A stretch of DNA of 50,356 nucleotides from a virus. Taxonomy: Duplodnaviria > Caudoviricetes. This document shows positions 22,760-47,047 of the stretch, one piece after another; positions within the stretch are counted from its first letter, which is position 1; each line of letters opens with the position of its first letter. A program made the position numbers and the translations under genes. The stretch is taken from the IMG/VR virus record IMGVR_UViG_3300048823_000117, positions 1-50,356 of that record; one strand, 5' to 3'. The notes below the pieces were generated by a model. It saw only the letters and a program-made list of their open reading frames with translations, searched no databases and was not told the DNA's origin.

Positions 22760-22941
22760 CAGTTAGCATTCTCACAGTTCTTGCAACGGGGCAATGGACT
22801 CCGACTGGCGGTCCACCATAACCAGCCCTTGCTGACGTACAGTCCACAGGCGGTTAGTCCTTCACTATGCGACTTACCGTACATTATGTGCTTGACCTTG
22901 CCAAGCGGCCGAGCTACGTAGAAGAAACGTTTCATACTCAA
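22759..22941 (-). CDS. Small zinc-finger-like protein
   Basis: H..TACG..CKNC; coupled between TerL and portal. Confidence 0.55.
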   Translation of the reverse strand: MSMKRFFYVARPLGKVKHIMYGKSHSEGLTACGLYVSKGWLWWTASRSPLPRCKNCENAN

Positions 22942-24416
22942 TATCCCGTCACTTGGTTGCGACCTTCAGCCTGTCGCGCAGCATTACCGCCGGCGATCCA
23001 GTCGAGTTCCTCGTCAGTCACATCATCCTCAGGTTCGACCTCTGGCATAGAATCAGTTCCGATGACGAGCCAGGCGGTGGAGTCGAAATCGTCATCCTCA
23101 AGGGCTTCGGCCTCGGCGGTGAACAAGAGCATCACAGATTCGTACTCGGGGTACCAGTCGGCGTCTTTGTCAAACGACATACCCTTGTTTTTCATTCGCT
23201 TCTGCATCGGTCGGCCGCGAGCAGCTTTGTCCTTAGACGCAGTCTTCGGCTCGATGTTGAGGTAGATGTTCCGCGAGCGCATTTCGGCTTCAAGGGTCGA
23301 CTTGAGCGTCAACCAGATCTGCCCCGACTCGACGAAGAAGAACTCTGGGTTCCAGCGAACCTGGATTGAGAAGAACTCCTCAATCAGCTGCGAACCATCC
23401 ATGCGGCCCTTTCGGCGGTCGACCACGTCCAGATGGCCGCCAATACATCGCCGACCTACGGTGAAGACGGAATTGTTCGCGCTATCCGCTTGGCTGATGG
23501 CCAAGTCCACACCCACTGCGAACCGACCGAAGCGCTCTTTTTCGTGCTCTTCAAGGGCGATGAACCATTCCTTTTTCAGATAAGCGTCTTCACGGTCCCG
23601 AGGCGCGTTCAGGTACTCGCACGAGTAACCAGCCGGATCCTTCGCGTCTATGAACTCTTGCTGCCGGCGGCGGAGTTCCGCCTCGTTGAACCTCGACGGC
23701 CAAAGAATGGCGCTAAAATTGCTGTAGCTTGCATGGGCTCGATAGATCCTATGGGTCCACGACTTACTATGGGTAAGATTCCACAGTAACGAGTCATCGT
23801 GAAGAATCGTCCCGTGGATTCGGGACAGACCGCCCTCGCCAAGGAGCTGCTTCGCCACTCGGAAGAACCACGCACGGAACGCCTTACGGGTCTCGGTAGT
23901 TGAAACGTTTTCCTCTGATTCAAGATCGTCTCCAAGGAGTAGGTCCGGCCGCATTCCGAGCCATAGCATGCCACGGATCTTCTGCCCGCTGCCCTTGGCG
24001 GAGATTCGGAACTTGTACCCGTCGGTACACTCGACGATGATGTCGGTCTGAGTATCGACGATGAAGTCTTTAATGCCGAAGTCCCGGCGCAGGGCCTCGT
24101 TGTTCTTCAGCGCATCTACCGACCGACCGAGGTGCTCGATCGCCAGGGCCTCGCTCGCGCTGAACAGTACCACGTACCTGCGCCAGCGGAACAGCACAGC
24201 CGCCAGCATGAACGCATCGGTGAACGCGGATGACTTCCCGTGCTTACGAGGAGCCGCCAGGGCGACGTTTTCGTCCGACGCATCGCAGTACAGAGCCCAT
24301 CCCTCCCGGTGCATACCGCACACCGGGTGGGGCTGATCGTACCCAGGGCTCAGGTAAGCCCCGGCGAAATTCTCGATCAGCTGCGCGTCGAGCGCAATGA
24401 GACCCTGGCCCTTCAC
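22938..24416 (-). CDS. terL: Terminase large subunit
   Basis: Walker A APRKHGKS, Walker B LLLGDDLE, GTILH, nuclease VGVDLA and DDDFDS. Confidence 0.93.
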   Translation of the reverse strand: MKGQGLIALDAQLIENFAGAYLSPGYDQPHPVCGMHREGWALYCDASDENVALAAPRKHGKSSAFTDAFMLAAVLFRWRRYVVLFSASEALAIEHLGRSVDALKNNEALRRDFGIKDFIVDTQTDIIVECTDGYKFRISAKGSGQKIRGMLWLGMRPDLLLGDDLESEENVSTTETRKAFRAWFFRVAKQLLGEGGLSRIHGTILHDDSLLWNLTHSKSWTHRIYRAHASYSNFSAILWPSRFNEAELRRRQQEFIDAKDPAGYSCEYLNAPRDREDAYLKKEWFIALEEHEKERFGRFAVGVDLAISQADSANNSVFTVGRRCIGGHLDVVDRRKGRMDGSQLIEEFFSIQVRWNPEFFFVESGQIWLTLKSTLEAEMRSRNIYLNIEPKTASKDKAARGRPMQKRMKNKGMSFDKDADWYPEYESVMLLFTAEAEALEDDDFDSTAWLVIGTDSMPEVEPEDDVTDEELDWIAGGNAARQAEGRNQVTGY

Positions 24417-25021: not shown

Positions 25022-25351
25022 CTAGTTAAGGGGCGGCTTAATCGCAAGCGCCGCAGTTTTAGTAATGACTCGAGCGAGGTTAGTCGTGGCGGTCACGACG
25101 ACTTGATAAATTGTGCCTAACACACCTGCGGACAAGACGACCGCTACTACCGCCGGAACGCCAGCGTAGTTGTTAAGAATGTTCTGCCCAGTGATGATTG
25201 CCTGAGGGTTAAGGTCATTGCCGCTGTAGACAGTTGAAGTCATAGTCACAACATTAACCGACTCGCCCGTGGCCAATTCGTCGGTGCAGTCCGCGTATCG
25301 AACCACCGTCTCTCCAATGGTCTTCGGCTTCCAGTCAAGTTTCCCGCTCAT
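25022..25351 (-). CDS. Putative fibre/tail adaptor-like small beta protein
   Basis: K..GE....YAD....L..GE..G..GTIYQVVVTATT pattern. Confidence 0.5.
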   Translation of the reverse strand: MSGKLDWKPKTIGETVVRYADCTDELATGESVNVVTMTSTVYSGNDLNPQAIITGQNILNNYAGVPAVVAVVLSAGVLGTIYQVVVTATTNLARVITKTAALAIKPPLN

Positions 25352-27240
25352 TTACATGCAGCGTAGTTAGTCGGACAGGCGCCATTGATACGCCAACCAG
25401 CAGAGTTAATAGCAGTGCGTACTCCAGCTAAAGTCTGGGTCGAATTGCCATTTGTCTGCGTGTCGATCCAGATAAAATGGGTTACTCCCAGGTTGCTGAA
25501 TCCATAGCTTTCGGTACCCGCTGAGGTCTGATTGGTCCAAGAGTAAGCGTTCGCCTGGACTTGGAACCCTAACGGCACCTTGCCCTTGAAGACGTTCGTG
25601 CCATAACTGCTACCCTCGCCCTGCACAATAGCCTCACCCGAGGTCTCGCATTGTGTGGTACTGGTTGCGGTACAGTGGGGGGTGGTCGCTCCGTAAGGAG
25701 TTAGATAGATGACATCGGGTCCACCAAATCCCCAGCCAGTATTGCCGGCGATAACAGGGAAGCGGGCGGCCATCGTAGAGAGCGCTTCACCCTGAATGCC
25801 CCAGTTGTCGTTGAAGAACTTGTTGGTCGTCGGCCACGAGACTGACAGAGCAGTGGCCATAGCTTCGTACTGGGTTTGATAAGCACTGGCTGAATAGTCA
25901 GCCGGCTCAGACCCAGGACCAGAACTGTTCCAAGTCAAGCCAGTTTCGGGTATAGGGACTATTCCCTCGACGTTCGGGTTGCCGTCGTACTTCTTGCCGA
26001 GGTAGTTAAACAGATTTATATAGGCCGTCATCGTGGCAGGACGCCACAAGGCTACGGTGGCGGTGTTCTGAGTACGGACGAGATCAGTACCGAAGCCGCC
26101 TACGCCTGTAATGATGTAGTCAGGGGCGATTGAGGAGCTATTGTTGGAGGCGCCATAAGGCGCCCCCTGTGGAACGGTCGGAAGAGTACCAGGTGCCTGC
26201 CAGTACTCGCTCATTACGAGGATGATTAACTTGTACGTTACACCATCAGCCGCACTGGCTGAAGCCAGAGTAGCTAAGTCAGTATCAATCAGTATAGTGT
26301 TATAAACCGTACTGCTTACACCAGCCGGCAGGGTACCGCCTCCAGCCGTCCCGTCGGTCGGCCCGCCAGTTGGCTCGAGATAGAACCAACTATAGTCGTT
26401 CTCGATCCCTTTGAACCCGGGCTTTCCGGTCGCAGAGTTAATTGACCCCCGCATATCTGGGCCAAAGGAGGACCAGTTTGTTGATTGGTTCGTCGGGTTG
26501 ATCGGCGCTTGGCTAAGCGCTACCGGGTAATTAAAGTAGTGGCCAGGAGTCCACTTGATAGCAACCACTCCACTGGGCGGAACGCTTGTACCGAGATACA
26601 TCCCCGACCAGTTGGCCAGGACGACGTCAGTCGGCGCCTGGCCGTTCGAGTTGATAATCAACCCTGGTTGGCCAGAAGCAATCGACGAGTCGGTATAGTT
26701 AAAAGCGGCGACCTTAGTCCCGCGAAGGGTGACGTATAGGCTGGTGCCTTGAGCACAAACGCCGACGAGGTCGCCGGAATTAACTGTCTCGGTAGTCGCT
26801 GTAACGAGGGTTGTGACCGAGCCAGCTATGTTCTTGAACAGTAACATGCTTGCGGTGGCGCCTAGAGGGCCAGTCACCGCTACCCCGTAGAAGGTGCTGG
26901 CGGACGAGCTACTGCGAACCAGGACCTGGAAACTGGCTGAGCTAACTGCGTTCAAAGTGTTGACTTGAACCTGCGAGCACTGGTCGTTGGGGTAAGCGAT
27001 GTTGAACTGATTCCCGCAGTCAGTCACACCGACGTGCGAGCACTGGAGGGTATTGCTCACTACGCTTAGCGTAACATCGGACAATCCACCATTAACTACT
27101 ACCCAGTTCGACTGGCCGGACAGATTGCCGTTCGCGTAAGAGAACTTGTCCAGGGATAGAATGTTCCAATAGAACGCCGCCTGCGGCAAGGCCGTCGAGG
27201 CGACGAAGGTCAAGACCAGGGCAATTAACAAACGACGCAT
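25348..27240 (-). CDS. Signal-peptide protein: N-terminal lectin-like beta-sandwich plus clan GH-A-like glycoside hydrolase domain
   Basis: MRRLLIALVLTFVASTALPQA signal; KWTPGHY, FKGI...YSWFYLEP, LGKKYDGNPNVEG..ETG, GFGGPDV. Confidence 0.6.
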   Translation of the reverse strand: MRRLLIALVLTFVASTALPQAAFYWNILSLDKFSYANGNLSGQSNWVVVNGGLSDVTLSVVSNTLQCSHVGVTDCGNQFNIAYPNDQCSQVQVNTLNAVSSASFQVLVRSSSSASTFYGVAVTGPLGATASMLLFKNIAGSVTTLVTATTETVNSGDLVGVCAQGTSLYVTLRGTKVAAFNYTDSSIASGQPGLIINSNGQAPTDVVLANWSGMYLGTSVPPSGVVAIKWTPGHYFNYPVALSQAPINPTNQSTNWSSFGPDMRGSINSATGKPGFKGIENDYSWFYLEPTGGPTDGTAGGGTLPAGVSSTVYNTILIDTDLATLASASAADGVTYKLIILVMSEYWQAPGTLPTVPQGAPYGASNNSSSIAPDYIITGVGGFGTDLVRTQNTATVALWRPATMTAYINLFNYLGKKYDGNPNVEGIVPIPETGLTWNSSGPGSEPADYSASAYQTQYEAMATALSVSWPTTNKFFNDNWGIQGEALSTMAARFPVIAGNTGWGFGGPDVIYLTPYGATTPHCTATSTTQCETSGEAIVQGEGSSYGTNVFKGKVPLGFQVQANAYSWTNQTSAGTESYGFSNLGVTHFIWIDTQTNGNSTQTLAGVRTAINSAGWRINGACPTNYAACK

Positions 27241-28301
27241 CAGGTTTCCCCTGTGCCAGTGGTATGCCAGCCGGTCGTCGTATCCTTGTCAATTGACACG
27301 TCGGCTCCAGCCGCAAGCGTCCGACTCCCTGTCGTATTCACCGGGCTGAATGTCAGGGTATCGCTTACGATCTGCAGGGTCACAACCGCCGACGCGGCTG
27401 AGACGTAGATGCGGATCTTGGTCGGCACGACGAAGGCGACCGACGAGTTCGCTGGGATCGTCTCGGTGCAGGCAGAGGCGCAGTTGATATAGATCTTATT
27501 ATTAGCGTCTCCAATCGCCATAGTATCGTTGCCAGTCACATTACGCTGGGTAACCGCGCCGCTAGGCGTTGAACAGTTCGCAGCACCAGCCGTCGTGACG
27601 CCAGTAGCAAATTGGCCGCCAGTACACTGACTAGGAGATGAGGCTAAGGCGGCGGCGGTCGAGGCGGCGATTGTCCCTGTCCCAGTGAAGGACATTGAGC
27701 AGCCAGTCCCACAAACCATCGCGGCGATAGTGTTGGTTGAACTGGTAATCGAGCTAAACGCGCTCGAGCTCCCCGAGCCGCAGGCAGCGCCCGAGTCAAC
27801 CGCTACTCCAAGGGCAGACCACTGCATACAGTGGCCGGAGGTTATACCGCCATTGAAGATAACCAAGGCGCAGTTAATCAGCGAAGTGCAACCCGTTCCA
27901 CCGTTTACTTGTGGGAGGACCCCATTAAAGGCGTTTGCTGTTATGTTGCCACTGAGCTGGCAAGAACTGTTACAAATCATTACGGCTGTGGCGTTAGTGC
28001 CGCCAGTTACCAAGGCCCAGCTCGAGCCACCTGCTCCTGTACCACAAGGCGCTCCAGCGTCGCCGATAGTCGTTGAGGTGAAGAACTTGGCGCAATCGTT
28101 CGGCGTCGGCGAGGCGACGATCAGGGCCTGCTGCATGTACGCAAGGAACATCGAAAAGGTGCACTTGCTAGTCGTGCCGGACTGATCGCAGATAGAGTAA
28201 TCGCTGCCGGAAATCGACCCGCCTAAGGGTAAGTTCTGCACCGAGACTTGAGCAAAGGCTAATACCGGCAACAGGGCTAGCAACAGGAATAGCTTTTTCA
28301 T
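27240..28301 (-). CDS. Signal-peptide, Cys-rich tail-fibre-like protein
   Basis: MKKLFLLLALLPVLAFA|Q (upstream in-frame starts also possible); fibre-type N-terminal module; two C..DxGAxCG modules; LPQVNGGTG; C-terminal fibre tip ending W...G. Confidence 0.65.
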   Translation of the reverse strand: MKKLFLLLALLPVLAFAQVSVQNLPLGGSISGSDYSICDQSGTTSKCTFSMFLAYMQQALIVASPTPNDCAKFFTSTTIGDAGAPCGTGAGGSSWALVTGGTNATAVMICNSSCQLSGNITANAFNGVLPQVNGGTGCTSLINCALVIFNGGITSGHCMQWSALGVAVDSGAACGSGSSSAFSSITSSTNTIAAMVCGTGCSMSFTGTGTIAASTAAALASSPSQCTGGQFATGVTTAGAANCSTPSGAVTQRNVTGNDTMAIGDANNKIYINCASACTETIPANSSVAFVVPTKIRIYVSAASAVVTLQIVSDTLTFSPVNTTGSRTLAAGADVSIDKDTTTGWHTTGTGET

Positions 28302-28434
28302 TGTAAAGTTACTCATATAACTCAATCCCTAATCCGCTTCTACCGGGCACCGGATTAAGATGGGCCATGGCGAAGAAAAAGAAGATGGATGCGCATACCC
28401 GAAATTTAACTACGGGTGCTAGAGGTTCCAACAG

Positions 28435-29289
28435 CTAGTTGGATCCGACGGCGCCAGTGGATAGCAAATAACTGCCCGTAGTGCAGTTGGGCGTCGTGAA
28501 ACTGCCGGTCCCCTCATTCCAATACGAGCCGCTAGTGCCATTCGGAACTGCGAAGACGCCCGTACTGGACCAGAAGGAGTGCGTACACGAGGCGCCGGAT
28601 CCTTCCGTAAACACCAGTCCCGTGGTATCCCAATTATCGTACTGCCCCACCCCGGATGAGCCGAAGGTCGCAGCGTTGGATCCTGTGGAGGTTACCCGCC
28701 TATCCTCGAACAGCACCAGATTCCCGGATGGAGAGAGCCAAGGATTTCCCCTGGTGGTGAACCCGGTTCCAGCGGTGGGTGCCACTCCATTGTTCTCATT
28801 GGCAGTCATACCCCACAGCATGGCTGGCACTGAGGTGATCGAAATCGTCGTGGAGGTCACCGTATCCGTGCCGTTGGTGGTGCCGGCTTGGGTTTGTCCA
28901 ATACACCCGGCATAAGCGCCTAGCCCTGAGTATTCCGATACCAAGATACCCGACAGGCCGCCTACCGCTGTCGCGGTGACGACCGTGGCTCCAGCGGCTG
29001 CGGCCAATACGTAATAGTAAGAAGTGCTGAAAGCAGCCCCCGTGACGGTGCAGGCGGCCGTGTAGGTGTTGCCGTTTCCGGTCACAGTAGCGATAGGTTT
29101 GCCGCTATTTGCGATATAGACGCCAACGATGAGCGTGTCACCGGCAGTCACAGTGATCGAGCTTGCGGCGATGGAACCCACGCCAGATGCGGTGTTGTTC
29201 TGCCCATCTTGAACGTGTGCGTAGGTTGCGAATGCCGGGGATGCAATCGCAAGAAGAAACAGCGCAAGAGTTGCGCGCAGTAGTTTCAC
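28435..29289 (-). CDS. Signal-peptide beta-rich (fibre/adhesin-like) protein
   Basis: GTG at 29289 overlapping the upstream stop; MKLLRATLALFLLAIASPAFA|T; VTAGDTLIV..SEYSG..PTAGTGFT. Confidence 0.6.
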   Translation of the reverse strand: MKLLRATLALFLLAIASPAFATYAHVQDGQNNTASGVGSIAASSITVTAGDTLIVGVYIANSGKPIATVTGNGNTYTAACTVTGAAFSTSYYYVLAAAAGATVVTATAVGGLSGILVSEYSGLGAYAGCIGQTQAGTTNGTDTVTSTTISITSVPAMLWGMTANENNGVAPTAGTGFTTRGNPWLSPSGNLVLFEDRRVTSTGSNAATFGSSGVGQYDNWDTTGLVFTEGSGASCTHSFWSSTGVFAVPNGTSGSYWNEGTGSFTTPNCTTGSYLLSTGAVGSN

Positions 29290-31271
29290 TGTATGTACCC
29301 CTGGATTGCCTGCCACTTAGCTGGTGCACTGCCAATAGGTGAGATCGTCTGCATGATGCTTTCGAGCGCTCCCCATGCGCCGTTGAAAGTGATCGGCCCA
29401 ACATCTGAGAAGATGTTGTTGATGTTTGTGGAAGTGGCGCCGACGTTGGTCTTCCAATAGTTCAGGTACGTCGTGTATGCAGTGCCCATTCGCGCATCAC
29501 GCTCAGCGCTAATGACAAGTGCAGGCCATCCGCTTGCTGTCCCTGATGATGTCGCATAGAAGTTCTGGCCGCCCTCATAGGCAACGAGGCTCAACGTCGG
29601 ATAGGTCGGCATGATCGCCGTGTAACTGTTTATCTGGCCCTCGATCTGCCCCAGCCATCCACCCGATGGGACGCTCGAATAGCTCTGTGATCCATTACCA
29701 ACGGTGCCTGTTTGGCTGTAGAGGGTTGCAAAGAAGTCATCTAAGGGAGTGGTGACGCCGGTCATCGTCGTGGCATCACCGGAACTTGGATTTCCGCCCC
29801 AGTAAGGAGCTATCGAGAGTGCTTTTACCGGGTAGCTGGTGACCGGCCCGCTTGGCCAATCAGCCGCCGCAATCGCAAGTGTTGCGGTCGCTGTGAAGGA
29901 AGCCTGTCCGCCTAAGACAGGAATACAGTTGGCAAAGAGCGTTGAGCCCACCGCGGTTTGAATGTCGGTGGCCATCTGCGCCACCCGCATGCCGTACCAA
30001 CTGCGGTTATATTCAAATCCACCGGCCGCGGTGTCGGACGGCCACAGCACATATCCTGCGGTAGAGGCAATCGTGTTTTGAGGAAATGCGCCGTTCCACA
30101 CCTCGTTGGAGAACTCAGAGTAGAACTTCAAACCTGAAGTAAGCGCAGAATATCCCGACTGTGCCCCGGTCCCGCTCATGACCAGTTGCGCCCAGCTTTC
30201 TATGTAGGCGTCGGAGGCGTTCACGGGCACGTTCATCCAACAATTGGCACCGATCGCATTGCACATCGCGACCTGGACTTCGTAGGGCACGCCATCCGAT
30301 CGGGTGTACGAAGCATTAGACGGCAGCGCCCGATTCGCCCAGGACTTGGAAATATCGACTGGGAAATAGGGCAGGTAGTTGAACGAGGTCCCCCCGGTCC
30401 AACTGACAGTTGTGCTCCCATAGGTAAAGGATGCCGCCTTTACCTCGCTTTGCGGGGCGCTGTTGCTTAAAGTGCCGAAGTAGATGTTGTAGGTTCCGGT
30501 CGGATACGGCCATGCTTGGTTGAGCGTAAGACCTGTGGCACCTGAGTTGATCTGCGTTCCGCTAGAACACGCGCCAGATGATGCACAGGCTGCCTCGTAG
30601 GCTTGAGCATTCGTGTTGCGCCAGTCCATCATGCGCAATAGCTTGAAGTTAGCCATCGCGGTGAGGAATGATGGGGCAAATATCGCTCCGGCGTTGTAGG
30701 CGGCAACATTGCTGGTCTGAACGATGCTCAGGTTTGTGAGATGGTTTCCTGAAGTTGACGATGTGATATTGACGAAGAGGCCGTTCGTCGTGGCGCTTGA
30801 GACCGTAAAGGTACTTCCGGATGTCGTGATCGTCGCGCTCGCATCCCCTGAAATGACGACTGTTCCGGCACCTGAGAACTGAACGGTGTAACTGCCCGTG
30901 GGGTAATAGAGGCTCTGTCCGGGAGCCAGCGAATATCCGCCAGGTGCCCGATAGACGAGGCAATAGACCTGCGTGCTGGTGAGGCCGCTTTGAGGAATGA
31001 TCAGCGGATAGCCGTCAGAGTCCGTATTGAGCGAGTATTCCTCGCTCGTGTCGCCCCCTCCGTTCGAGGTACTGGTGACCCAGGTAGAATCTAGCGTGTT
31101 GCTGCCGCACATCTTCATGATATTCATGAAGGGAAATTCGGTCGTGAAGTAGTTGACGGAAGTCAGCTCAATGCCTAACGGGTTTACAACTATCGGAACA
31201 GCCCCCCACGGGCGCGCGAAAGTGGGCAGCGATGCCGTCAAACACAGCAGAACCGGAAGTAAGCGCTTCAT
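29286..31271 (-). CDS. Signal-peptide clan GH-A-like glycoside hydrolase (putative depolymerase)
   Basis: MKRLLPVLLCLTASLPTFA|R; FPFMNIMK, LRMMDW, GVPYE..CN...WMNVP, EFSNEVWN (acid/base), AYEGGQ (nucleophile), WGALE. Confidence 0.7.
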   Translation of the reverse strand: MKRLLPVLLCLTASLPTFARPWGAVPIVVNPLGIELTSVNYFTTEFPFMNIMKMCGSNTLDSTWVTSTSNGGGDTSEEYSLNTDSDGYPLIIPQSGLTSTQVYCLVYRAPGGYSLAPGQSLYYPTGSYTVQFSGAGTVVISGDASATITTSGSTFTVSSATTNGLFVNITSSTSGNHLTNLSIVQTSNVAAYNAGAIFAPSFLTAMANFKLLRMMDWRNTNAQAYEAACASSGACSSGTQINSGATGLTLNQAWPYPTGTYNIYFGTLSNSAPQSEVKAASFTYGSTTVSWTGGTSFNYLPYFPVDISKSWANRALPSNASYTRSDGVPYEVQVAMCNAIGANCWMNVPVNASDAYIESWAQLVMSGTGAQSGYSALTSGLKFYSEFSNEVWNGAFPQNTIASTAGYVLWPSDTAAGGFEYNRSWYGMRVAQMATDIQTAVGSTLFANCIPVLGGQASFTATATLAIAAADWPSGPVTSYPVKALSIAPYWGGNPSSGDATTMTGVTTPLDDFFATLYSQTGTVGNGSQSYSSVPSGGWLGQIEGQINSYTAIMPTYPTLSLVAYEGGQNFYATSSGTASGWPALVISAERDARMGTAYTTYLNYWKTNVGATSTNINNIFSDVGPITFNGAWGALESIMQTISPIGSAPAKWQAIQGYIQ

Positions 31272-31964
31272 TTAATTGAAGTCGCAGTTGAAGCTGATGA
31301 CATCAGTTGTCGCAGCTGCTGCCGGAATCGGCAGCGTCGCCGTCGTGGTGGTGCTGGCCGATTGAATCCAGGCCGGGATCCACGTACCCGCGTTCATGGC
31401 TGTCTGATCCCCTACGCTGCAGTGATAGCCGTACGGTGCAGTGAAGCCAGTAGCGCCGTTTATCTCAATGGTGACCGCCGTGCACGGACCTGAAGCCAAC
31501 GTAAACGTGCCCCCGAACGGCCCTGCGTGCGTGATCGTGGGAGTGCAGCCAGTGCCGCTGATCGTATAGGCGGTGGTGGCGCCGATATCTGCGATAGTGC
31601 TTGCAGAGGCCGCGACGAATGAGGTTCCTCCCGCTCCCGTCTGATACGGGATATTGTTCGCTGCGCCGCCGGCGATGTTGGTGGCTGTACCGACAGTGAC
31701 GGTTGATGCAGCAGTACCCGTGCAATTGGTTGTACTGGTGAAGATGCACAGCTGACCGACAGAGCCAGGACCAATACCAGCGCTTCCACTGCCACAAGCT
31801 GCCCCAGCGTCTGCCAAGACGCCGACCTGTTGCCACTTCGTACAGTCACCAGGAGTAATTGGGGTGATGTAGGTCAGTCCGCTAACCGATCCACCACCGA
31901 CGCCTTGGGCGAACCCGATGATCGGGACCAGGGCTAGGAGGAGCAGGGCGAGTAGGCGGCACAT
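31272..31964 (-). CDS. Signal-peptide, Cys-rich fibre-like protein
   Basis: MCRLLALLLLALVPIIGFA|Q; ITPGDCTKW..LADAGAACGSG module; ATNIAGGAANNIPYQTGAG fibre repeat. Confidence 0.6.
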   Translation of the reverse strand: MCRLLALLLLALVPIIGFAQGVGGGSVSGLTYITPITPGDCTKWQQVGVLADAGAACGSGSAGIGPGSVGQLCIFTSTTNCTGTAASTVTVGTATNIAGGAANNIPYQTGAGGTSFVAASASTIADIGATTAYTISGTGCTPTITHAGPFGGTFTLASGPCTAVTIEINGATGFTAPYGYHCSVGDQTAMNAGTWIPAWIQSASTTTTATLPIPAAAATTDVISFNCDFN

Positions 31965-31966
31965 GG

Positions 31967-32572
31967 CTAATTCCTGCCCTGTGAGGCGACGAGGAACGCC
32001 TTACCCGCACCAGTGAAGGCGGTACAGATGAGGCGAGACATCCAGACTGGGTAGGCGTAATTGCCAGTTGCGCGAGCTACGAGGCCAGTTAGCGACGGGT
32101 GGGTGAACACGCGGGCGGAGGTCACTCGGGCCTGGAATACGCTTGTCTGGTTAACCGGAGTCACGACGGTGTAGGTATTCACGCCCGTTACCGTAACCGG
32201 GTAGCCAGACTGGTTGCCCGAGTCAACGCCGACTTGCGAGCCCTGGAGGAATACCAAGTCGCCGGTTAGCAGCCCATGACCGAACGGGCCACCCCAGGCC
32301 TGGTTCGACGGTGCGCCGTTAATGGTCTCGGGGCCGTAGTCGGTTATCGTAGCAGTAGTCGAGGCAGACTGAACGCCTTGAACCAGACGCTCAGAGGTCT
32401 GTGACTGGTCGTCGGCGACGTACTGAACCGCAAGAGTGGCGTTGAGGACGCTGTCGAAGAACACGCTCAGCGTGACGTCGAACGGACTCTGCCCAGTGTC
32501 GTGCTTGATCCAGGGGCTTACCGAGGCAGTCCCAGCGACCGCCATGGCGACCTGTTGGATTCGCGTAGCCAT
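31967..32572 (-). CDS. Putative virion protein (beta-sandwich with an E1-FCCH-like insertion)
   Basis: SPWI..PFDV..VQY..DD..GNYAYPV..RL frame with an inserted HGLLTGDLV..YPVTVTGVNTYT. Confidence 0.55.
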   Translation of the reverse strand: MATRIQQVAMAVAGTASVSPWIKHDTGQSPFDVTLSVFFDSVLNATLAVQYVADDQSQTSERLVQGVQSASTTATITDYGPETINGAPSNQAWGGPFGHGLLTGDLVFLQGSQVGVDSGNQSGYPVTVTGVNTYTVVTPVNQTSVFQARVTSARVFTHPSLTGLVARATGNYAYPVWMSRLICTAFTGAGKAFLVASQGRN

Positions 32573-32862
32573 TAGGCAACTCCCTTCAATCGCTTCGACG
32601 GCCGGATAGGATCTCGGCCCTCGTCTTGGGCCTTGGGCTCCGAGTCGAACATCGGATTCCGGTCGGCGAACCGAGTTCCTCGAGTACCATCCGGTACCGG
32701 CTTCCCAGGACCCGGGACCGACGAATTAACCCTCCCGGGGGCCAGGACCGCAAGGTTCGGCACTGGCTGTCGAGTCGCCTGTCCACGTTTCGACCACTTG
32801 GTTGTCACAGAATTAACCTCCGGCAGCCCCGGAGGCTGCTGACTTAACGACGATCTCGGCAT
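32572..32862 (-). CDS. Hypothetical basic Pro-rich protein
   Basis: Coupled ORF after terS. Confidence 0.5.
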   Translation of the reverse strand: MPRSSLSQQPPGLPEVNSVTTKWSKRGQATRQPVPNLAVLAPGRVNSSVPGPGKPVPDGTRGTRFADRNPMFDSEPKAQDEGRDPIRPSKRLKGVA

Positions 32863-33436
32863 CCGAGACGTCGGGAGACTGGTTGAGGTTGCGCAGATTG
32901 TCGCGCAGCTGATGCAGGTGCAAGTGCATATCCACCCGCTGCGGGGTGCCGGGCAGGTCCCGGGCGCCGTAACCGAGGAGCTTCGAGGTCATCTCGGCCG
33001 ACTTGATGATTAGCTGAGGAGGAATGAGTTCCTCGGGCTGGTCGAGCTTACTCGCCAATAGCCGAAGGCTATTCTTGAGAATCCCCCGGGCTTCTTCCTC
33101 GATCGAGGCGAACCGGAGCTTAAACGCCGCCTGGCGCTCGGGCTCGATTGACTTCTCGATTCGATCCGCAAGGCGGACCTGGAATGCGTCGCTGGCGATC
33201 AGCCGGCTGAGGTAGCTCTGGGTATAGCCAAGGCGCTTGGCCAGCTGCCCCTGCGTCTCGGTCGGGGGGCTAAGTAAGAGCGCATCAACGATCTGCTCAT
33301 AGGTCAACGAGACTGTAGTTATTGGTGGCAACCTAGCCGAGGCGGCTGGACTGGCACCTGATACCTGCGGGGCAGACGGTTCGTCTGGGGGTGATGCGAT
33401 CCCCAGTAGGCTTAACGTCCCTGCGGTGCCGTCCAG
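32813..33436 (-). CDS. Putative terminase small subunit / HTH protein (CTG start at 33436 proposed; ORF track start 33331)
   Basis: HTH TQGQLAKRLGYTQSYLSRLIASDAFQ; first gene of the late arm; the frame is open to a CTG preceded by GGGGAGAAGGGA. Confidence 0.6.
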   Translation of the reverse strand: MDGTAGTLSLLGIASPPDEPSAPQVSGASPAASARLPPITTVSLTYEQIVDALLLSPPTETQGQLAKRLGYTQSYLSRLIASDAFQVRLADRIEKSIEPERQAAFKLRFASIEEEARGILKNSLRLLASKLDQPEELIPPQLIIKSAEMTSKLLGYGARDLPGTPQRVDMHLHLHQLRDNLRNLNQSPDVSDAEIVVKSAASGAAGG

Positions 33437-33472
33437 TCCCTTCTCCCCCGGTCGTTCTGCGACCGTATCGAG

Positions 33473-33501
33473 AACATACCATAAGCGGCGACCCGTGTCA
33501 A
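33473..33501 (-). promoter_or_regulatory. Sigma70-type promoter for the late arm
   Basis: Minus strand TTGACA-17 nt-TATGTT with extended TG. Confidence 0.7.
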
Positions 33502-33670
33502 CTAAGTAATGAAACTATTTTCACGACTGAGCCGGTCAGGTCCAGGTCATCGGGGCGGCGGGCCGGTCGGCGGATGGCCCCAGGACTGCATACGGCGGCC
33601 GGTGGGCGGCGATCGTCGGCGGCCGGTACCCTAGTGGCGGGTCCGTTCGCCCCGCCCATATCGCGTCTGA

Positions 33671-33710
33671 TTACGATATCTTGTTATGGGGGTTAACCTG
33701 ATATCGTTAA
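33671..33710. promoter_or_regulatory. Conserved 40-bp dyad element, copy C
   Basis: TTACGATATCTTGTTAT-GGGGG-TTAACCTGATATCGTTAA. Confidence 0.7.
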
Positions 33711-33805
33711 TGGCAGGACCCGCAATGTTCGAGAAAGCCTGGTACACTTTTACTGTGGGCGAATTATTTGCCCCCCAGGCGGCCCAGTCAGCGGGCGACC
33801 CTGGC

Positions 33806-34031
33806 TGCGGCAGTGCAACAAGCTAATGCGAATGATTATCAATCGCAGTCGCTAATGCGAATGATAATCATTCGCAGTCGCATTAGCATTAGCAATTGCG
33901 CTTGACTGTGCTAGTGATGTAGCACACCAGCCTACTACATAGCTACTCATGTAGGCTGCTACACTACCACTAGGCTAGACGGCTGGCCTGTTGCAGCGCC
34001 GCATGAACGCGGTTCAGGGTGCAGTGCGACA
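33806..34031. promoter_or_regulatory. Three PhaR-like TGC-rich pseudo-palindromes (33806-33820, 33989-34003, 34017-34031)
   Basis: TGCGGCAGTGCAACA, TGTTGCAGCGCCGCA (inverted near-copy of the first) and GGGTGCAGTGCGACA, all close to TGTTGCAnTGCAACA. Confidence 0.45.
33822..33879. promoter_or_regulatory. Two tandem 29-bp repeats, each containing a Fur box
   Basis: GCTAATGCGAATGATTATCAATCGCAGTC and GCTAATGCGAATGATAATCATTCGCAGTC. The second is a perfect 10-1-10 palindrome matching 15/19 of GATAATGATAATCATTATC. Confidence 0.75.
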
Positions 34032-34150
34032 ATCCATGCGGTCGATGGCTGGTATCACTACGATGGATTATCCAGCCGATGGATAGCTATCATTCGTCAG
34101 ATGGATAATCCATCGCGTCGATGGCTGGTATTCGTGGAACGAATGGCGAG

Positions 34151-34166
34151 TGTTCCACGTGGAACA
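34151..34166. promoter_or_regulatory. parS: parS centromere site (chromosomal ParB type)
   Basis: Perfect 16-bp palindrome TGTTCCACGTGGAACA matching the consensus TGTTNCACGTGNAACA. Confidence 0.85.
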
Positions 34167-34183
34167 TAAATGATCCGCGCGCG

Positions 34184-34201
34184 TAGCAAGATGCGTGCCA
34201 A
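34184..34201 (-). promoter_or_regulatory. Sigma54 (RpoN) -24/-12 site
   Basis: Minus strand TTGGCACGCATCTTGCTA = TGGCAC-N5-TTGC. Confidence 0.7.
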
Positions 34202-34252
34202 TTCGTCGGGCGAAAGATTACGAAAATGTAATGCAAATCGTTGAACAAACCC

Positions 34253-34281
34253 TTGACGGCGATGGACTAACTAGGTAGACT
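34253..34281 (+). promoter_or_regulatory. Sigma70 early promoter P1
   Basis: TTGACG-17 nt-TAGACT, followed by GGAGG RBS and the ATG at 34314. Confidence 0.75.
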
Positions 34282-34313
34282 GACATCGTTAGCTAAACGA
34301 ATGGAGGAACGAC

Positions 34314-34523
34314 ATGACGACATTGCAATTAACCCGGCCGATGGCGAATTGGCGAACGGCCGTCAATACCGGCATCACGTACATGTGGAGTCGGTTGAAT
34401 CGAATTGACCGGCACAACGAACGGGCTCGGAATCGAATTGACCGGCACAACGAACGGGCTCGGACGTGGCGGGTGCTGGAACAAATTGACCGCAACAATG
34501 TGCAGATGAATGTCAAATATTAG
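34314..34523 (+). CDS. First early gene, hypothetical, with an internal 11-aa duplication
   Basis: GGAGGAACGAC-ATG; NRIDRHNERAR twice. Confidence 0.7.
   Translation: MTTLQLTRPMANWRTAVNTGITYMWSRLNRIDRHNERARNRIDRHNERARTWRVLEQIDRNNVQMNVKY
34397..34462 (+). repeat. Perfect 2 x 33-bp in-frame tandem repeat
   Basis: GAATCGAATTGACCGGCACAACGAACGGGCTCG twice, with a degenerate third copy near 34479. Confidence 0.9.
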
Positions 34524-35504: not shown

Positions 35505-35893
35505 GCCCGCATGAAGAATGGTTGATTGCGAATCGGCTGAAGGCCCAGGAAATGGCGCCTAAGATGACCGACCAGGATAAGGCGCGGTTGCATAAGGCGA
35601 TTGCGAAAGTCGCTTATATGAAAGACGCGCAAGCGGCCAGGGCAGCATTAGGCGCGCATTCGATGACAGCCGGAGACGCAGTTTACCTTTTGGTTGTCCA
35701 GAATAGCTATTGCGCCTGCTGTCCGCAGGACTTATCCAGCGATGAAGTAAACCGCTGGGGGGTTGACCACAATCGACAAAAGCACCGCGTTCGGGGGATT
35801 CTCTGCTTTAGTTGCAATACAGGCATCCGGCCGGTCTGGCAAGTGAAGTGCATGGTTGAGTACTTAAAACGCAATGGAGACTGGGATGAGTAA
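35498..35893 (+). CDS. Endonuclease VII-like (beta-beta-alpha-Me) nuclease
   Basis: QNSYCACC..VDHN....VRGILCFSCNTGI..EYL. Confidence 0.8.
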   Translation: MLSPHEEWLIANRLKAQEMAPKMTDQDKARLHKAIAKVAYMKDAQAARAALGAHSMTAGDAVYLLVVQNSYCACCPQDLSSDEVNRWGVDHNRQKHRVRGILCFSCNTGIRPVWQVKCMVEYLKRNGDWDE

Positions 35894-36377
35894 TAGATTT
35901 GGCAGCAGGAATACTCGAGCGGCCGAATTAACTCCGGTTCAGGTGCTGGAGATTCGAGAATTGTATCACAATCAGCAATACACACAGCGTCGACTTGGGA
36001 GGATGTACAATGTCGCCACAGAGACAATTGGGCGTATTGTGAGGAATGATACCTGGAAAGGAGTAGGCGGCCCAGGGACGGACAGGGAACCGTCGGCAGA
36101 TGAAAATCTGCACGAAGCGGCGCTGGAGATGGCAGCGAAGCTACCATTGTCACCGCAAGCACAGGCTGAGGCTACTGCAGCCGCAGCACGGATTATGGCA
36201 AGGTTAACACAAAACGAGGAACGCACCGATGATTTACCGAGACAGACGAACGATTTACATTCCGACGACCAATCAGCCGGACTCAACGTACCAAGCCACG
36301 ACGTATCCGAGCATCAATCTGGCGAAGAAGCAGAGCCGGTTGCTGGGCGGATCCCGGGGACTGGTGAGGGTCGGTAA
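35874..36377 (+). CDS. HTH DNA-binding protein (HNH-endonuclease C-terminal-type domain)
   Basis: GSRNTRAAELTPVQVLEIR..TQRRLGRMYNVATETIGRIVRNDTWK. Confidence 0.7.
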   Translation: METGMSNRFGSRNTRAAELTPVQVLEIRELYHNQQYTQRRLGRMYNVATETIGRIVRNDTWKGVGGPGTDREPSADENLHEAALEMAAKLPLSPQAQAEATAAAARIMARLTQNEERTDDLPRQTNDLHSDDQSAGLNVPSHDVSEHQSGEEAEPVAGRIPGTGEGR

Positions 36378-46870: not shown

Positions 46871-47047
46871 TTGAAAAAGTGTTACCATTGCAAACGCATA
46901 ATCTGGCCGTGGCAGGCTCGTTCGTACAGCACGATACCAGAGCACAAACGGTGCGCTGTATTAGCGTTCATCCATGATGCTTACAGAGATCTCCCTATTA
47001 CACAGGCAAGTAACCAAATTGCCCTGTACAGGGAGAGCCAAAAGTGA
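46871..47047 (+). CDS. Small Cys/His hypothetical protein
   Basis: CYHCKRIIWPWQ..HKRC. Confidence 0.5.
   Translation: MKKCYHCKRIIWPWQARSYSTIPEHKRCAVLAFIHDAYRDLPITQASNQIALYRESQK

What the first reader, a model, noticed from the sequence alone, without database searches (positions are those of the whole stretch)
33806..34281. Dense array of host DNA-binding-protein sites at the head of the early arm
Seen: about 450 bp of non-coding DNA made almost entirely of palindromes. It holds two Fur boxes, three PhaR-like TGC dyads, a nested hairpin, a GATGG dyad cluster, a perfect parS, a consensus sigma54 site and an ATTAC-N6-GTAAT dyad, and ends at the first sigma70 promoter. Established: Fur, ParB and RpoN are unrelated, widely conserved bacterial proteins with these consensus sites. 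Most of the sites lie 50-450 bp from the nearest promoter, too far for simple repression. Inference: this is a landing pad for abundant host proteins, probably near the physical genome end between terS and the first early gene. It could ratchet DNA into the cell, shield the end from nucleases or defence sensors, titrate regulators, or read host iron, carbon, nitrogen and cell-cycle state. This is my best candidate for an undescribed system.
Basis: partly seen in the sequence, partly recalled or inferred. Interest (0 to 1): 0.92.

Follow-up and report, generated by a model that had tools for sequence, protein, structure and literature searches.

The report
Host-protein docking hub in phage spacer
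A gene-free stretch between the early and late gene blocks of an uncultured peat phage carries conserved, near-perfect binding sites for bacterial proteins that the phage does not encode, in an arrangement that resembles the unexplained repeat region of phage T5.

Summary
The observation largely holds. 33806-34281 is non-coding and is the most palindrome-rich window of the genome. It holds an exact parS, an exact sigma-54 -24/-12 element, two Fur-box dyads, a GATGG dyad cluster and an ATTAC-N6-GTAAT dyad, none found elsewhere in the 50 kb. The "nested hairpin" and the "PhaR" label are not supported.

The phage encodes no ParB HTH domain, Fur, or sigma-54 activator domain, so host proteins are the likely readers.

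In a close relative (L255), all 37 of 37 positions of parS, the sigma-54 element and the ATTAC arms are kept, against 41 of 65 neighbouring positions. The Fur and GATGG blocks are missing there, so the hub has a conserved core plus swappable cassettes.

In more distant relatives the same spacer carries tandem DnaA boxes, Fur-like dyads or parS just upstream of a conserved G-tract motif. Contig ends cluster at that motif, which suggests a packaging site or genome end.

The closest known case is the T5 injection-stop repeat region. Earlier notes of this scan reported similar site sets in T5-like phages, on other DNA.

No protein binding, genome termini or function were shown here. This is a new variant of a known but unexplained kind.

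The parts
33806..34281 (.). The array as reported: the non-coding, palindrome-rich inner part of the spacer between the two gene arms
   Evidence: Palindrome cover is 28% against 4.6% in shuffles, with 0 of 500 shuffles reaching it. It gives the highest value of 998 genome windows.
33806..33823 (.). Left arm of an imperfect 18-nt inverted repeat. Its partner is 33986-34003.
   Evidence: I6, 83% complementary. The left arm is poorly kept in L255 (9 of 24 columns over 33800-33823); the right-arm zone is partly kept.
33822..33879 (.). Two tandem 29-nt repeats. Each is centred on a Fur-box-like dyad (33827-33847 and 33856-33876).
   Evidence: The DNA fold z-score is -6.9. blastn matches Fur-like repeats in the T5-like phage DT57C. 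The block is absent or replaced in L255.
33907..33985 (.). The 'hairpin zone'. Its sequence is conserved, but it is not a supported structure.
   Evidence: 67 of 79 positions are identical in L255. The fold z-score is -0.56. The arms change without compensation in L255.
33986..34027 (.). Right-hand TGC-rich repeat zone, holding the partner arm of the inverted repeat and the GCAGTGCGACAA direct repeat
   Evidence: I6, D13. The zone is partly conserved in L255.
34028..34145 (.). GATGG cassette. It has three 38-nt-phased units, dyads at 34062-34076 and 34100-34114, two exact copies of GTCGATGGCTGGTAT, and the dyad ATTCGTGGAACGAAT.
   Evidence: 6 GATGG against 0.24 expected. The fold z-score is -2.9. 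The whole block is missing from L255, as 104 gap columns.
34151..34166 (.). Exact chromosomal-type parS (TGTTCCACGTGGAACA)
   Evidence: It is unique in the genome. It is 16 of 16 identical in L255. The same 16-mer lies in the spacer of Alcaligenes phage vB_Af_QDWS535. It occurs as a single copy in 7 of 49 related records, against 0 of 49 for the reversed control.
34185..34200 (-). Sigma-54 -24/-12 promoter element (TGGCAC-N5-TTGCT) pointing towards parS and the terS arm
   Evidence: It is the only exact match in the genome. In L255 all 11 specified positions are kept while 2 of the 5 spacer bases differ.
34217..34232 (.). ATTAC-N6-GTAAT dyad between the divergent sigma-54 and sigma-70 promoters
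   Evidence: In L255 both 5-nt arms are kept while 3 of the 6 spacer bases differ, and the 32-nt start-to-start spacing to the sigma-54 element is the same.
34253..34281 (+). First early sigma-70-type promoter (TTGACG-17-TAGACT), upstream of the first early ORF at 34314-34523
   Evidence: 9 of 12. The -35 hexamer is kept in L255.
33760..33776 (-). G-tract anchor motif (GGGGGGCAAATAATT...). It lies outside the reported coordinates but belongs to the hub. It is conserved across the phage group and may be a packaging site, a genome end or a promoter.
   Evidence: The zone is 50 of 57 identical in L255. Contig ends of relatives cluster 0-90 nt upstream of it. A variant strain shares only 33728-33784.
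33673..33707 (.). Dyad with arms 33673-33686 and 33694-33707.
   Evidence: I15. Note e1-6338667. 30 of 40 positions are identical in L255.
33524..33672 (.). GC-rich segment that is present in some strains and absent in others
   Evidence: It is skipped in a variant contig of run X2 and absent from L255. Its fold is no better than shuffles.
33473..33501 (-). Leftward sigma-70-type promoter (TTGACA-17-TATGTT, with TG) at the head of the terS/late arm
   Evidence: 10 of 12. The -35 hexamer is kept in L255.
32813..33331 (-). terS-like HTH protein, the first sizeable gene of the late arm
   Evidence: It has weak HTH matches, below Pfam's cut-off. Its homologues lie just upstream of TerL in G002 and G047.

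Best explanation
The stretch is the inner part of a roughly 750-bp gene-free control hub. The hub lies between two divergent sigma-70 promoters, one leftward for the terS/late arm and one rightward for the early arm. The phage is a 50-kb virus in which I found no integrase or ParA.

The hub is modular. Its conserved core is an ATTAC dyad, a leftward sigma-54 promoter and an exact host-type parS. The two Fur-box dyads and the GATGG dyad cluster are swappable cassettes.

The phage encodes no ParB DNA-reading domain, no Fur and no sigma-54 activator domain. The core sites are therefore most likely read by host proteins. Host ParB would load at parS. Sigma-54 RNA polymerase would sit on its promoter 8-23 nt upstream of parS. 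Fur would bind the dyads.

The hub adjoins a motif conserved across the phage group, at which relatives' contigs end. It therefore probably lies next to the packaging site or physical end, on the DNA that enters the cell together with the early genes.

My best reading is a host-protein docking site that acts at or soon after DNA entry. It would build a host nucleoprotein complex at the leading end, which holds or organises that end and sets the balance between the early and late promoters. Relatives use other host proteins (DnaA, Fur) at the same place. This works like the T5 injection-stop repeat region.

Shown: the motifs, their uniqueness, their selective conservation, their recurrence in relatives, and the absence of phage-encoded readers. 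Inferred: host-protein binding, the position near a genome end, and the function.
For: 1. The motifs exceed chance. Palindrome cover is reached by 0 of 500 shuffles. The parS and sigma-54 matches are the only ones in the genome.

2. Selective conservation in L255, a close relative with 104 of 117 identical nt in the terS N-terminus. There, 37 of 37 motif positions are identical (parS 16, sigma-54 11, ATTAC arms 10). In the same stretch 41 of 65 non-motif positions are identical, with 22 gap columns (Fisher P = 3e-6).

3. No phage-encoded readers. Six-frame searches of the genome find no PF17762, PF01475 or PF00158. The only ParB-like protein (47044-48366) has the ParB_N domain alone, fused to a methylase.

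4. parS does not track a phage ParB among the 24 records searched. None of the 7 parS-carrying records in that search, 4 of them at least 90% complete, has ParB_N. G002 has ParB_N but no parS.

5. Recurrence among 24 dereplicated relatives that have the G-tract anchor. I scanned the 400 nt upstream of the anchor:
- Exact DnaA boxes: 12 in 7 of 24 records, 0.09 expected, reversed control 0.
- Fur-like sites: 8 in 5 of 24 records, 0.25 expected, reversed control 1.
- parS: 2 of 24 records, 0.06 expected, reversed control 0.
In 6 sequences (4 distinct lineages) the DnaA boxes are tandem pairs 42-147 nt upstream of the anchor.

6. The cultured Alcaligenes phage vB_Af_QDWS535 has the identical parS 16-mer in its spacer. 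GenBank record MW202796 has a Fur-like palindrome about 130 nt upstream of its anchor.

7. Position near an end. Of 31 related contigs whose end lies within 10 kb upstream of TerL, 7 begin 0-90 nt upstream of the anchor (with L021 read by eye). One complete relative (G044) starts with sequencing adapter 60 nt upstream of the anchor, while its other end reads through.

8. T5 parallel. blastn links the Fur-like repeats to the non-coding terminal-repeat region of the T5-like phage DT57C. That locus holds two tandem DnaA-box pairs, 12 Fur-like sites (reversed control 1) and a perfect LexA-type box.
Against: - No binding data exist, and the host is unknown.
- The Fur and GATGG blocks are absent from the close relative L255, so they are dispensable or strain-specific.
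- The two nearest TerL relatives with the spacer in hand (L006, L061) carry other repeats (AATGTGACAA-type) and no parS or Fur site.
- Only 7 of 49 related records have parS. In several it lies kilobases inside the early arm, not in the spacer.
- The sigma-54 element recurs only in L255. It is found in 0 of 24 anchor windows.
- Among 120 other parS-carrying viral contigs, DnaA, Fur and sigma-54 sites do not clearly cluster near parS. The counts are 4 against 1.3 expected, 10 against 6.4, and 1 against 0.26.
- The termini of this phage are unmapped. Its 'direct terminal repeat' is a 127-nt assembler overlap inside the DNA polymerase gene, and only contigs could be laid.
- Contig ends can also cluster at G-runs, AT repeats or strain-variable spots. 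Adapter also occurs at an unrelated contig end, L059.
- The phage has HTH proteins of its own (32813-33331 and 35874-36377). These could read the GATGG, ATTAC and TGC elements.
Confidence: 0.45

Rival explanations
1. The hub is a replication origin with a segregation site. The spacer would be the phage origin, fired with help from host DnaA. parS would recruit host ParB-ParA to position or segregate phage DNA, either in a plasmid-like carrier state or in replication foci. This would mirror parS sites clustering near oriC on chromosomes.
For: - Tandem perfect DnaA boxes lie 42-147 nt upstream of the anchor in 6 sequences (4 distinct lineages).
- Long pure-AT tracts follow the anchor in several relatives and could be unwinding elements.
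- This window has an iteron-like GATGG cluster with 38-nt phasing.
- parS lies in the same spacer in this phage and in QDWS535.
- DnaA boxes are enriched overall: 31 exact against 6 for the reversed control in 1.39 Mb.
Against: - This window has 0 consensus DnaA boxes in the spacer.
- It has no strong AT tract. The most AT-rich 40-mer has 32.5% GC.
- The iteron-like cluster is absent from L255.
- No integrase or ParA was found in 5 of 5 complete genomes, and no initiator gene was recognised next to the hub.
- Fur and sigma-54 sites have no role in known origins.
- Cumulative GC skew turns near 24 kb and 40 kb, not at 33.8 kb.
Confidence: 0.2
2. The sites are read by the phage's own proteins. 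The dyads and repeats would be operators for phage regulators, and TerS recognition repeats of a cos/pac site, as in lambda cosB upstream of Nu1. On this view the likeness to host motifs is convergence or coincidence.
For: - The hub lies directly upstream of the terS-like gene.
- The GATGG, ATTAC and TGC elements match no host consensus that I could test.
- The phage encodes HTH proteins at 32813-33331 and 35874-36377.
- The nearest relatives have their own lineage-specific repeats in the same spacer.
- A dyad at 33673-33707 is said to recur at other intergenic sites (note e1-6338667; not checked by me).
Against: - An exact 16-of-16 parS is kept in L255 and in an Alcaligenes phage. It recurs in relatives that lack any ParB_N protein.
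- The sigma-54 element keeps exactly the 11 consensus positions while its spacer changes.
- None of the array motifs recurs elsewhere in the genome, as operators of a phage regulator usually do.
- Perfect DnaA boxes in relatives cannot be phage-specific operators.
- This explanation probably holds for part of the array (GATGG, ATTAC), but not for parS, sigma-54 or DnaA.
Confidence: 0.15
3. The sites are a regulator sponge or sensor. As the phage DNA replicates, they would titrate Fur, ParB, or DnaA in relatives. That would derepress iron uptake or disturb host replication and segregation. Alternatively, they couple the early/late promoters to host iron, nitrogen and cell-cycle state.
For: - The Fur dyads are duplicated in tandem.
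- The T5-like phage DT57C has 12 Fur-like sites in its repeat region, against 1 for the reversed control.
- Different host regulators are targeted in different relatives.
- The ATTAC dyad is centred about 63 nt upstream of the predicted early transcription start (my estimate from the hexamers). That is a usual position for an activator.
Against: - There is one parS and only two Fur sites per genome.
- The Fur block is lost in L255.
- The Fur dyads lie about 360-400 nt from either sigma-70 promoter.
- No iron-related gene is adjacent.
- Titration does not explain why the sites sit at one fixed place next to the anchor motif.
Confidence: 0.15
4. The array is chance or neutral repeat debris in a spacer, with no function.
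For: Two blocks are dispensable in L255. The nested hairpin is no better than shuffles.
Against: 0 of 500 shuffles reach the palindrome cover. 37 of 37 motif positions are conserved against 41 of 65 neighbouring positions. The reversed controls are near zero.
Confidence: 0.03

Closest known systems
Untranslated repeat regions and injection stop signal (iss) of the first-step-transfer DNA of phage T5 and its relatives. Source: Davison, bioRxiv 10.1101/866236. I read the abstract, section 3.3 and passages found by term search.
   Same: - Both are gene-free, dense with repeats and palindromes, and lie at the head of the earliest genes near a genome end.
- Both carry host-protein sites. Tandem DnaA boxes occur in T5-like phages (pairs 3 nt apart, per the paper; seen in DT57C). 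They also occur in this phage's relatives (pairs 2 nt apart).
- Fur-like repeats in DT57C match the Fur dyads of this window by blastn (81.8% over 60 nt, E = 4e-7).
- In both cases the function is unproven.
   Different: - This is a different phage group, with a 50-kb genome. PHROGs and Pfam searches of the early proteins returned only an endonuclease VII and an HTH/HNH-type match, so no A1/A2-like early proteins were recognised.
- This window has no DnaA box. Its conserved core is parS plus a sigma-54 promoter, which I did not find in DT57C.
- The preprint does not mention Fur or LexA (0 occurrences each).
- A terminal repeat and two-step entry are not shown for this phage.
Chromosomal ParB-parS centromere, and mobile elements that carry a parS to use another replicon's ParB. 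Example: SGI1 hijacking the IncC plasmid parABS, PMC10954446 (search listing and start of abstract only).
   Same: An exact match to the chromosomal parS consensus, on an element that lacks a cognate ParB with an HTH domain.
   Different: There is no ParA and no sign of a plasmid lifestyle. The site is single and sits 8-23 nt downstream of a sigma-54 promoter. No paper on phages borrowing host ParB through a chromosomal parS turned up in my two searches.
Lambda cos region (cosB R sites and IHF site upstream of Nu1). Recalled from general knowledge, not from a call.
   Same: A cis-acting site directly upstream of the small-terminase gene. It combines repeats for a phage protein with a site for a host DNA-binding protein.
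   Different: No cohesive ends or TerS binding are shown here. The host sites are ParB, Fur and sigma-54 rather than IHF; 0 matches to a recalled IHF pattern fall in the spacer.
DnaA-dependent iteron origins such as P1 oriR. Recalled from general knowledge.
   Same: Tandem DnaA boxes next to AT-rich DNA and iteron-like repeats in relatives.
   Different: This window lacks DnaA boxes and a clear AT tract. No initiator gene was found.

Membership tests
T5-type first-step-transfer repeat region / iss | Untranslated, repeat- and palindrome-dense DNA at the head of the earliest genes | tested here: met
   The early arm starts at 34314 behind a sigma-70 promoter.
T5-type first-step-transfer repeat region / iss | Paired DnaA boxes | tested here: not met
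   There are 0 consensus DnaA boxes in 33483-34313. The feature is met in relatives G038, G044, G029 and L017.
T5-type first-step-transfer repeat region / iss | Lies in a long terminal repeat that is injected first; two-step transfer needing A1/A2 | not testable with these tools
   Only contigs could be laid. The record's own repeat is a 127-nt assembly overlap. PHROGs/Pfam searches of the early proteins returned only an endonuclease VII and an HTH/HNH-type match, so no A1/A2-like protein was recognised.
T5-type first-step-transfer repeat region / iss | Same order of repeats conserved among relatives | tested here: inconclusive
   The core order (ATTAC, sigma-54, parS, TGC zone, anchor) is kept in L255, but two blocks are missing there. 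Content differs in more distant relatives.
ParABS partition system | 16-bp palindrome matching the chromosomal parS consensus | tested here: met
   Exact match at 34151-34166. It is 16 of 16 identical in L255.
ParABS partition system | Cognate ParB with an HTH domain, and ParA, encoded by the element | tested here: not met
   No PF17762 in the genome. The only ParB-like protein has ParB_N alone, fused to a methylase. No PF13614.
ParABS partition system | ParB binding and spreading at the site | not testable with these tools
   This needs ChIP or EMSA with the unknown host's ParB.
Fur box | Dyad matching the 19-bp consensus (recalled) | tested here: met
   15 of 19 at 33857-33875 and at 33822-33840. 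All hits with <=5 mismatches in the genome lie in the array.
Fur box | Overlaps the promoter of an iron-regulated gene | tested here: not met
   The dyads lie about 360-400 nt from either sigma-70 promoter. No iron-related gene is adjacent.
Fur box | Conserved in close relatives | tested here: not met
   The block is absent or replaced in L255. Fur-like dyads do occur at the equivalent place in L012, L057 and MW202796.
Sigma-54 promoter | TGGCAC-N5-TTGCW with GG and GC 10 nt apart | tested here: met
   It is the only exact match in the genome. All 11 specified positions are kept in L255 while the spacer changes.
Sigma-54 promoter | Enhancer-binding activator and its upstream site; a gene downstream | tested here: inconclusive
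   No PF00158 in the phage, so a host activator would be needed. The conserved ATTAC dyad lies 32 nt upstream and could serve, which is unproven. No ORF with a ribosome site follows for about 690 nt (by eye).
Iteron-type DnaA-dependent origin | Iterons plus DnaA boxes plus an AT-rich unwinding element plus an initiator gene | tested here: not met
   The iteron-like GATGG cluster is present but dispensable in L255. There are no DnaA boxes. The most AT-rich 40-mer has 32.5% GC. No initiator was recognised.
cos/pac site with TerS recognition repeats | Adjacent to terS; a motif conserved in relatives; termini mapped there | tested here: inconclusive
   Adjacency is met. The conserved G-tract anchor lies at 33760-33776. 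Termini are inferred only from the clustering of contig ends.

The most novel reading that the evidence does not exclude
Phages of unrelated groups, T5-like phages and this 45-50-kb group, place interchangeable cassettes of high-affinity sites for abundant, oligomerising host DNA-binding proteins on the first DNA to enter the cell. The proteins are ParB, DnaA, Fur and sigma-54 RNA polymerase. The host itself then assembles a nucleoprotein cap on the incoming end, before any phage protein exists. The cap would anchor, pause or protect the end. In this phage, a poised sigma-54 closed complex would act as a one-sided barrier. ParB loaded at parS would then spread towards the genome end and the late promoter, but not over the early promoter.
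Probability: 0.2. Interest if true: 0.88.

Novelty: new variant of a known kind. Interest (0 to 1): 0.68.

Why it matters
What stops and organises phage DNA as it enters the cell has been an open question since the two-step entry of T5 was described. The only proposed host partner in the preprint I read is DnaA.

This report shows that a second, unrelated phage group has the same kind of gene-free hub, with sites for other host proteins (ParB, sigma-54 polymerase, Fur, and DnaA in relatives). For parS and the sigma-54 element there is direct comparative evidence of selection, and no phage-encoded reader was found.

A cultured member of the group, Alcaligenes phage vB_Af_QDWS535, carries the identical parS in its spacer. 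The idea is therefore testable at the bench.

The exact parS 16-mer is also far more common in viral contigs than its reversed control: at least 120 stretches against 3. Phage use of host ParB may thus be widespread and under-studied.

Tried and rejected
- Close relatives through the 661-aa neighbouring protein: none found in viral contigs.
- Host assignment through TerL in bacterial genomes: only two short MAG fragments, which tell nothing. No tRNA genes.
- Rfam: nothing near a gathering score in the spacer or in six relatives' parS loci.
- A phage ParB reading parS: rejected. The methylase fusion has only ParB_N, and parS and ParB_N do not co-occur among relatives.
- The GC-rich segment 33530-33665 as a structured RNA: its fold is no better than shuffles (z = +1.9). 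It is an indel between strains and does not align with the GC-rich element beside parS in low-GC relatives.
- The nested hairpin: rejected as a structure.
- Terminus mapping: all 23 runs listed are kept as contigs. The laid contigs cannot show starts or ends. In the probable source run, the contig over 32841-34426 has depth 27.3 against 18.8 and 16.5 beside it. I could not tell terminal redundancy from a segment shared between co-occurring strains.
- An exact 23-nt anchor pattern in metagenome contigs: 0 hits.
- General co-clustering of host sites around parS in 120 other viral contigs: weak or absent.
- GC skew as an origin marker: uninformative.
- Literature. No paper linked a chromosomal parS on a phage to host ParB. 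None held 'Fur box', 'phage genome' and 'intergenic' together. None was found for QDWS535. Supplementary files were not consulted. The supplements of the Davison preprint, said to describe further repeats, may bear on the Fur-like repeats.
- I did not use structure prediction, complex prediction, the search for homologous proteins or the search of protein representatives. No claim here rests on them.
Full report
CONTEXT

The window is a whole IMG/VR virus record of 50,356 bases. Its "direct terminal repeat" is a 127-nt overlap of the contig ends inside the DNA polymerase gene. That is an assembly artefact and says nothing about physical ends. Runs that hold the stretch are labelled peat, permafrost and lake-water metagenomes. 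Only the four best, all peat or permafrost, were laid.

Genes form two arms that diverge from the spacer under study.
- The - strand arm runs from 33482 down to about 3400. It holds a terS-like HTH protein (32813-33331), TerL (22938-24416), the portal and the virion genes.
- The + strand arm starts at 34314. It holds small early genes, endonuclease VII, an exonuclease, a ParB_N-methylase fusion and, across the record's ends, DNA polymerase and primase.
- The homologue of the 172-aa HTH protein lies just upstream of TerL in relatives G002 and G047. In this window six genes lie between terS and terL.
- A leftward sigma-70-type promoter (TTGACA-17-TATGTT, 33501-33473) and a rightward one (TTGACG-17-TAGACT, 34253-34281) bound about 750 bp of non-coding DNA.

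THE OBSERVATION

Perfect inverted repeats (arms >=6 nt, loop <=10 nt) cover 28% of 33806-34281. The mean in 500 dinucleotide-preserving shuffles is 4.6%, and none reaches the observed value. The windows over the stretch give the highest value of 998 windows in the genome.

These elements are real, and each is confined to the spacer (unless stated):
- An exact parS at 34151-34166.
- An exact TGGCAC-N5-TTGCT on the - strand at 34185-34200.
- Two Fur-like dyads inside tandem 29-nt repeats. The better one is a perfect 10-1-10 palindrome that matches 15 of 19 positions of the recalled Fur consensus.
- A GATGG cluster, with 6 copies in 104 nt against 0.24 expected and three 38-nt-phased units.
- ATTAC-N6-GTAAT at 34217-34232.

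Two items fail. The "nested hairpin" folds no better than shuffles (z = -0.56). The "PhaR" label could not be tested.

WHO READS THE SITES

Six-frame searches of the genome find no HTH_ParB, FUR or Sigma54_activat domain. The only ParB-like protein has the ParB_N domain alone, fused to a methylase. Pfam and PHROGs searches of 46 predicted proteins named no such factor.

Among the 24 related records searched for ParB_N, none of the 7 parS-carrying records has it, and 4 of those are at least 90% complete. G002 has ParB_N but no parS. Host proteins are the likely readers of parS, the sigma-54 element and the Fur dyads.

A CLOSE RELATIVE SHOWS WHICH PARTS ARE UNDER SELECTION

A 1,282-nt metagenome contig (L255) carries the terS N-terminus (104 of 117 nt identical) and the whole spacer.
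- In the stretch 34146-34252, all 37 predicted motif positions are identical: parS 16, sigma-54 11, ATTAC arms 10.
- Only 41 of 65 other aligned positions are identical, and 22 columns are gaps (Fisher P = 3e-6).
- The N5 spacer of the sigma-54 element differs at 2 of 5 positions. The N6 spacer of the ATTAC dyad differs at 3 of 6.
- The 32-nt start-to-start distance from the dyad to the sigma-54 element is kept.
- The GATGG cluster with its neighbouring dyad is absent (104 gap columns). The Fur block is replaced by unrelated sequence. The GC-rich segment 33524-33660 is absent; a variant contig in run X2 skips about the same segment.
- The "hairpin zone" is 67 of 79 identical, but its arms change without compensation.

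The hub therefore has a conserved core plus cassettes that come and go. The core holds the early promoter, the ATTAC dyad, the leftward sigma-54 promoter, parS, a TGC-rich zone and a G-tract motif.

WIDER RELATIVES

TerL finds 61 related loci in IMG/VR at 30-48% identity. I fetched 17 near-complete genomes. Most have a long non-coding spacer between the early arm and the terS/TerL arm.

On the TerL strand, most spacers hold a conserved G-tract motif, roughly TAGGGGTAGGnAGGGGGG(C)AAAT. I saw it in 14 of 18 genomes and in many partial contigs. In this window it lies at 33760-33776, 30 nt left of the array, and its zone is 50 of 57 identical in L255.

I took 24 dereplicated records that have this anchor and scanned the 400 nt upstream of it:

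| Site | Found in window | Expected | Reversed control |
|---|---|---|---|
| Exact DnaA boxes | 12 sites in 7 of 24 records | 0.09 | 0 |
| Fur-like (<=5 mismatches) | 8 sites in 5 of 24 records | 0.25 | 1 |
| parS (<=1 mismatch) | 2 of 24 records | 0.06 | 0 |
| Sigma-54 element | 0 | 0.04 | 0 |

Other points from the relatives:
- In 6 sequences (4 distinct lineages) the DnaA boxes form tandem pairs 2 nt apart, 42-147 nt upstream of the anchor.
- The cultured Alcaligenes phage vB_Af_QDWS535 has the identical parS 16-mer in its 1.3-kb spacer, about 300 nt upstream of its anchor.
- GenBank record MW202796 has a Fur-like palindrome about 130 nt upstream of its anchor.
- A parS with at most one mismatch occurs once in each of 7 of 49 related records. 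The reversed control occurs in 0 of 49. In several records the site lies inside the early arm, not in the spacer.
- The two nearest TerL relatives with the spacer in hand have other repeats and none of these sites.

IS IT NEAR A PHYSICAL END?

This is not shown for this phage. The evidence is indirect.
- Of 31 related contigs whose end lies within 10 kb upstream of TerL, 7 begin 0-90 nt upstream of the anchor. Three more begin elsewhere in the spacer (L021 was read by eye).
- The complete relative G044 begins with a sequencing adapter followed by sequence 60 nt upstream of the anchor. Its other end reads through the same point, with a 228-nt overlap.
- Two caveats apply. G-runs, AT repeats and strain-variable spots also break assemblies. 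Adapter also occurs at an unrelated contig end, L059.

If packaging starts at the terS side, as in lambda, T7 and T5 (recalled from general knowledge), the early-gene end with the array would enter the cell first. This step is inference.

COMPARISON WITH WHAT IS KNOWN

blastn of the region against 50,697 phage records hits only four records of two T5-like phages, DT57C and DT571/2. The match falls in the unannotated part of the terminal repeat. That locus holds two tandem pairs of perfect DnaA boxes, 12 Fur-like sites (reversed control 1) and a perfect LexA-type box. It has no parS or sigma-54 element.

Davison's preprint (10.1101/866236; I read the abstract, section 3.3 and term passages) describes this region as dense in repeats and palindromes, with paired DnaA boxes. 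It proposes that membrane-bound DnaA stops DNA injection. It does not mention Fur or LexA.

Earlier notes of this scan, on other DNA, report DnaA, Fur, sigma-54 and ParB sites in the first-injected DNA of T5-like phages (e1-5871866, e1-5871848, e1-5871179). Another reports a parS in the hub of a different phage (e1-1920047). These are unchecked AI notes. I checked the pattern only in DT57C.

Its reversed control occurs in 3. Around those 120 sites the other host motifs do not clearly cluster.

MECHANISM AND VERDICT

My best reading (confidence 0.45) is a modular docking hub for host proteins at the head of the early arm, next to the probable packaging site or end. Host ParB would load at parS. 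Sigma-54 polymerase would occupy the promoter immediately upstream. Fur would bind a strain-specific cassette, as DnaA would in relatives. The hub would act at or soon after DNA entry, and on the balance between the early and late promoters.

Rivals are:
- An origin and segregation hub (0.2). It fits the DnaA pairs and AT tracts of relatives, but not this window.
- Sites for the phage's own regulators or TerS (0.15). This probably holds for the GATGG and ATTAC elements.
- Titration or sensing of host regulators (0.15).
- Chance (0.03).

The finding is a new variant of a known but unexplained kind. It is made testable by a cultured relative that carries the same parS.

Noticed in passing
window 33760-33776 (- strand); relatives: A G-tract motif (about TAGGGGTAGGnAGGGGGG(C)AAAT on the TerL strand) is conserved in the spacer of 14 of 18 genomes of this phage group. 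Contig ends cluster just upstream of it. It could be a packaging site, a genome end or a promoter; a weak sigma-70-like match at 33791-33763 overlaps it.
   Followed up: partly
G038, G044, G029, L017, L036 and L038: Tandem pairs of perfect DnaA boxes, 2 nt apart and in the same orientation, lie 42-147 nt upstream of the G-tract motif. In G044 the pair begins about 20 nt from an adapter-tagged contig start.
   Followed up: partly
L066:1180-1300, L069:1720-1860, L070:1310-1440, L017:4960-5090, L068:1080-1220: Low-GC relatives have a conserved GC-rich element of about 120 nt with hairpins next to parS, just upstream of a gene with a strong ribosome-binding site. It has no Rfam match. It could be an undescribed leader or small RNA.
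   Followed up: partly
window 33332-33465 (- strand): The long 5' leader of the terS-like gene is 127 of 134 identical in L255. That is more conserved than the coding start (104 of 117) and far more than the promoter (15 of 29). It may be a regulatory leader.
   Followed up: no
window 25022-32572: Six genes lie between the terS-like gene and terL in this window, whereas the two are close neighbours in relatives G002 and G047.
   Followed up: no
L004 (Escherichia phage DT57C, record 6828-8726): The unannotated terminal-repeat region of this T5-like phage holds 12 Fur-like sites (reversed control 1) and a perfect CTGT-N8-ACAG box, besides the DnaA boxes. The Davison preprint does not mention Fur or LexA.
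   Followed up: partly
Its reversed-order control occurs in 3.
   Followed up: partly
window 34397-34460: The first early ORF holds a tandem 33-nt duplication, giving the peptide NRIDRHNERAR twice. Logan contigs break there. L255 has an unrelated first early gene.
   Followed up: no
window 32841-34426: In the probable source run, the contig over terS and the spacer has depth 27.3, against 18.8 and 16.5 for its neighbours. This could reflect terminal redundancy or a module shared by co-occurring strains. It is unresolved.
   Followed up: no
L128 (Alcaligenes phage vB_Af_QDWS535) about 3960-4240: Four to five iteron-like repeats of about ATGGGGACA lie between parS and the G-tract motif. A pure-AT tract of about 100 nt lies further downstream.
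   Followed up: no
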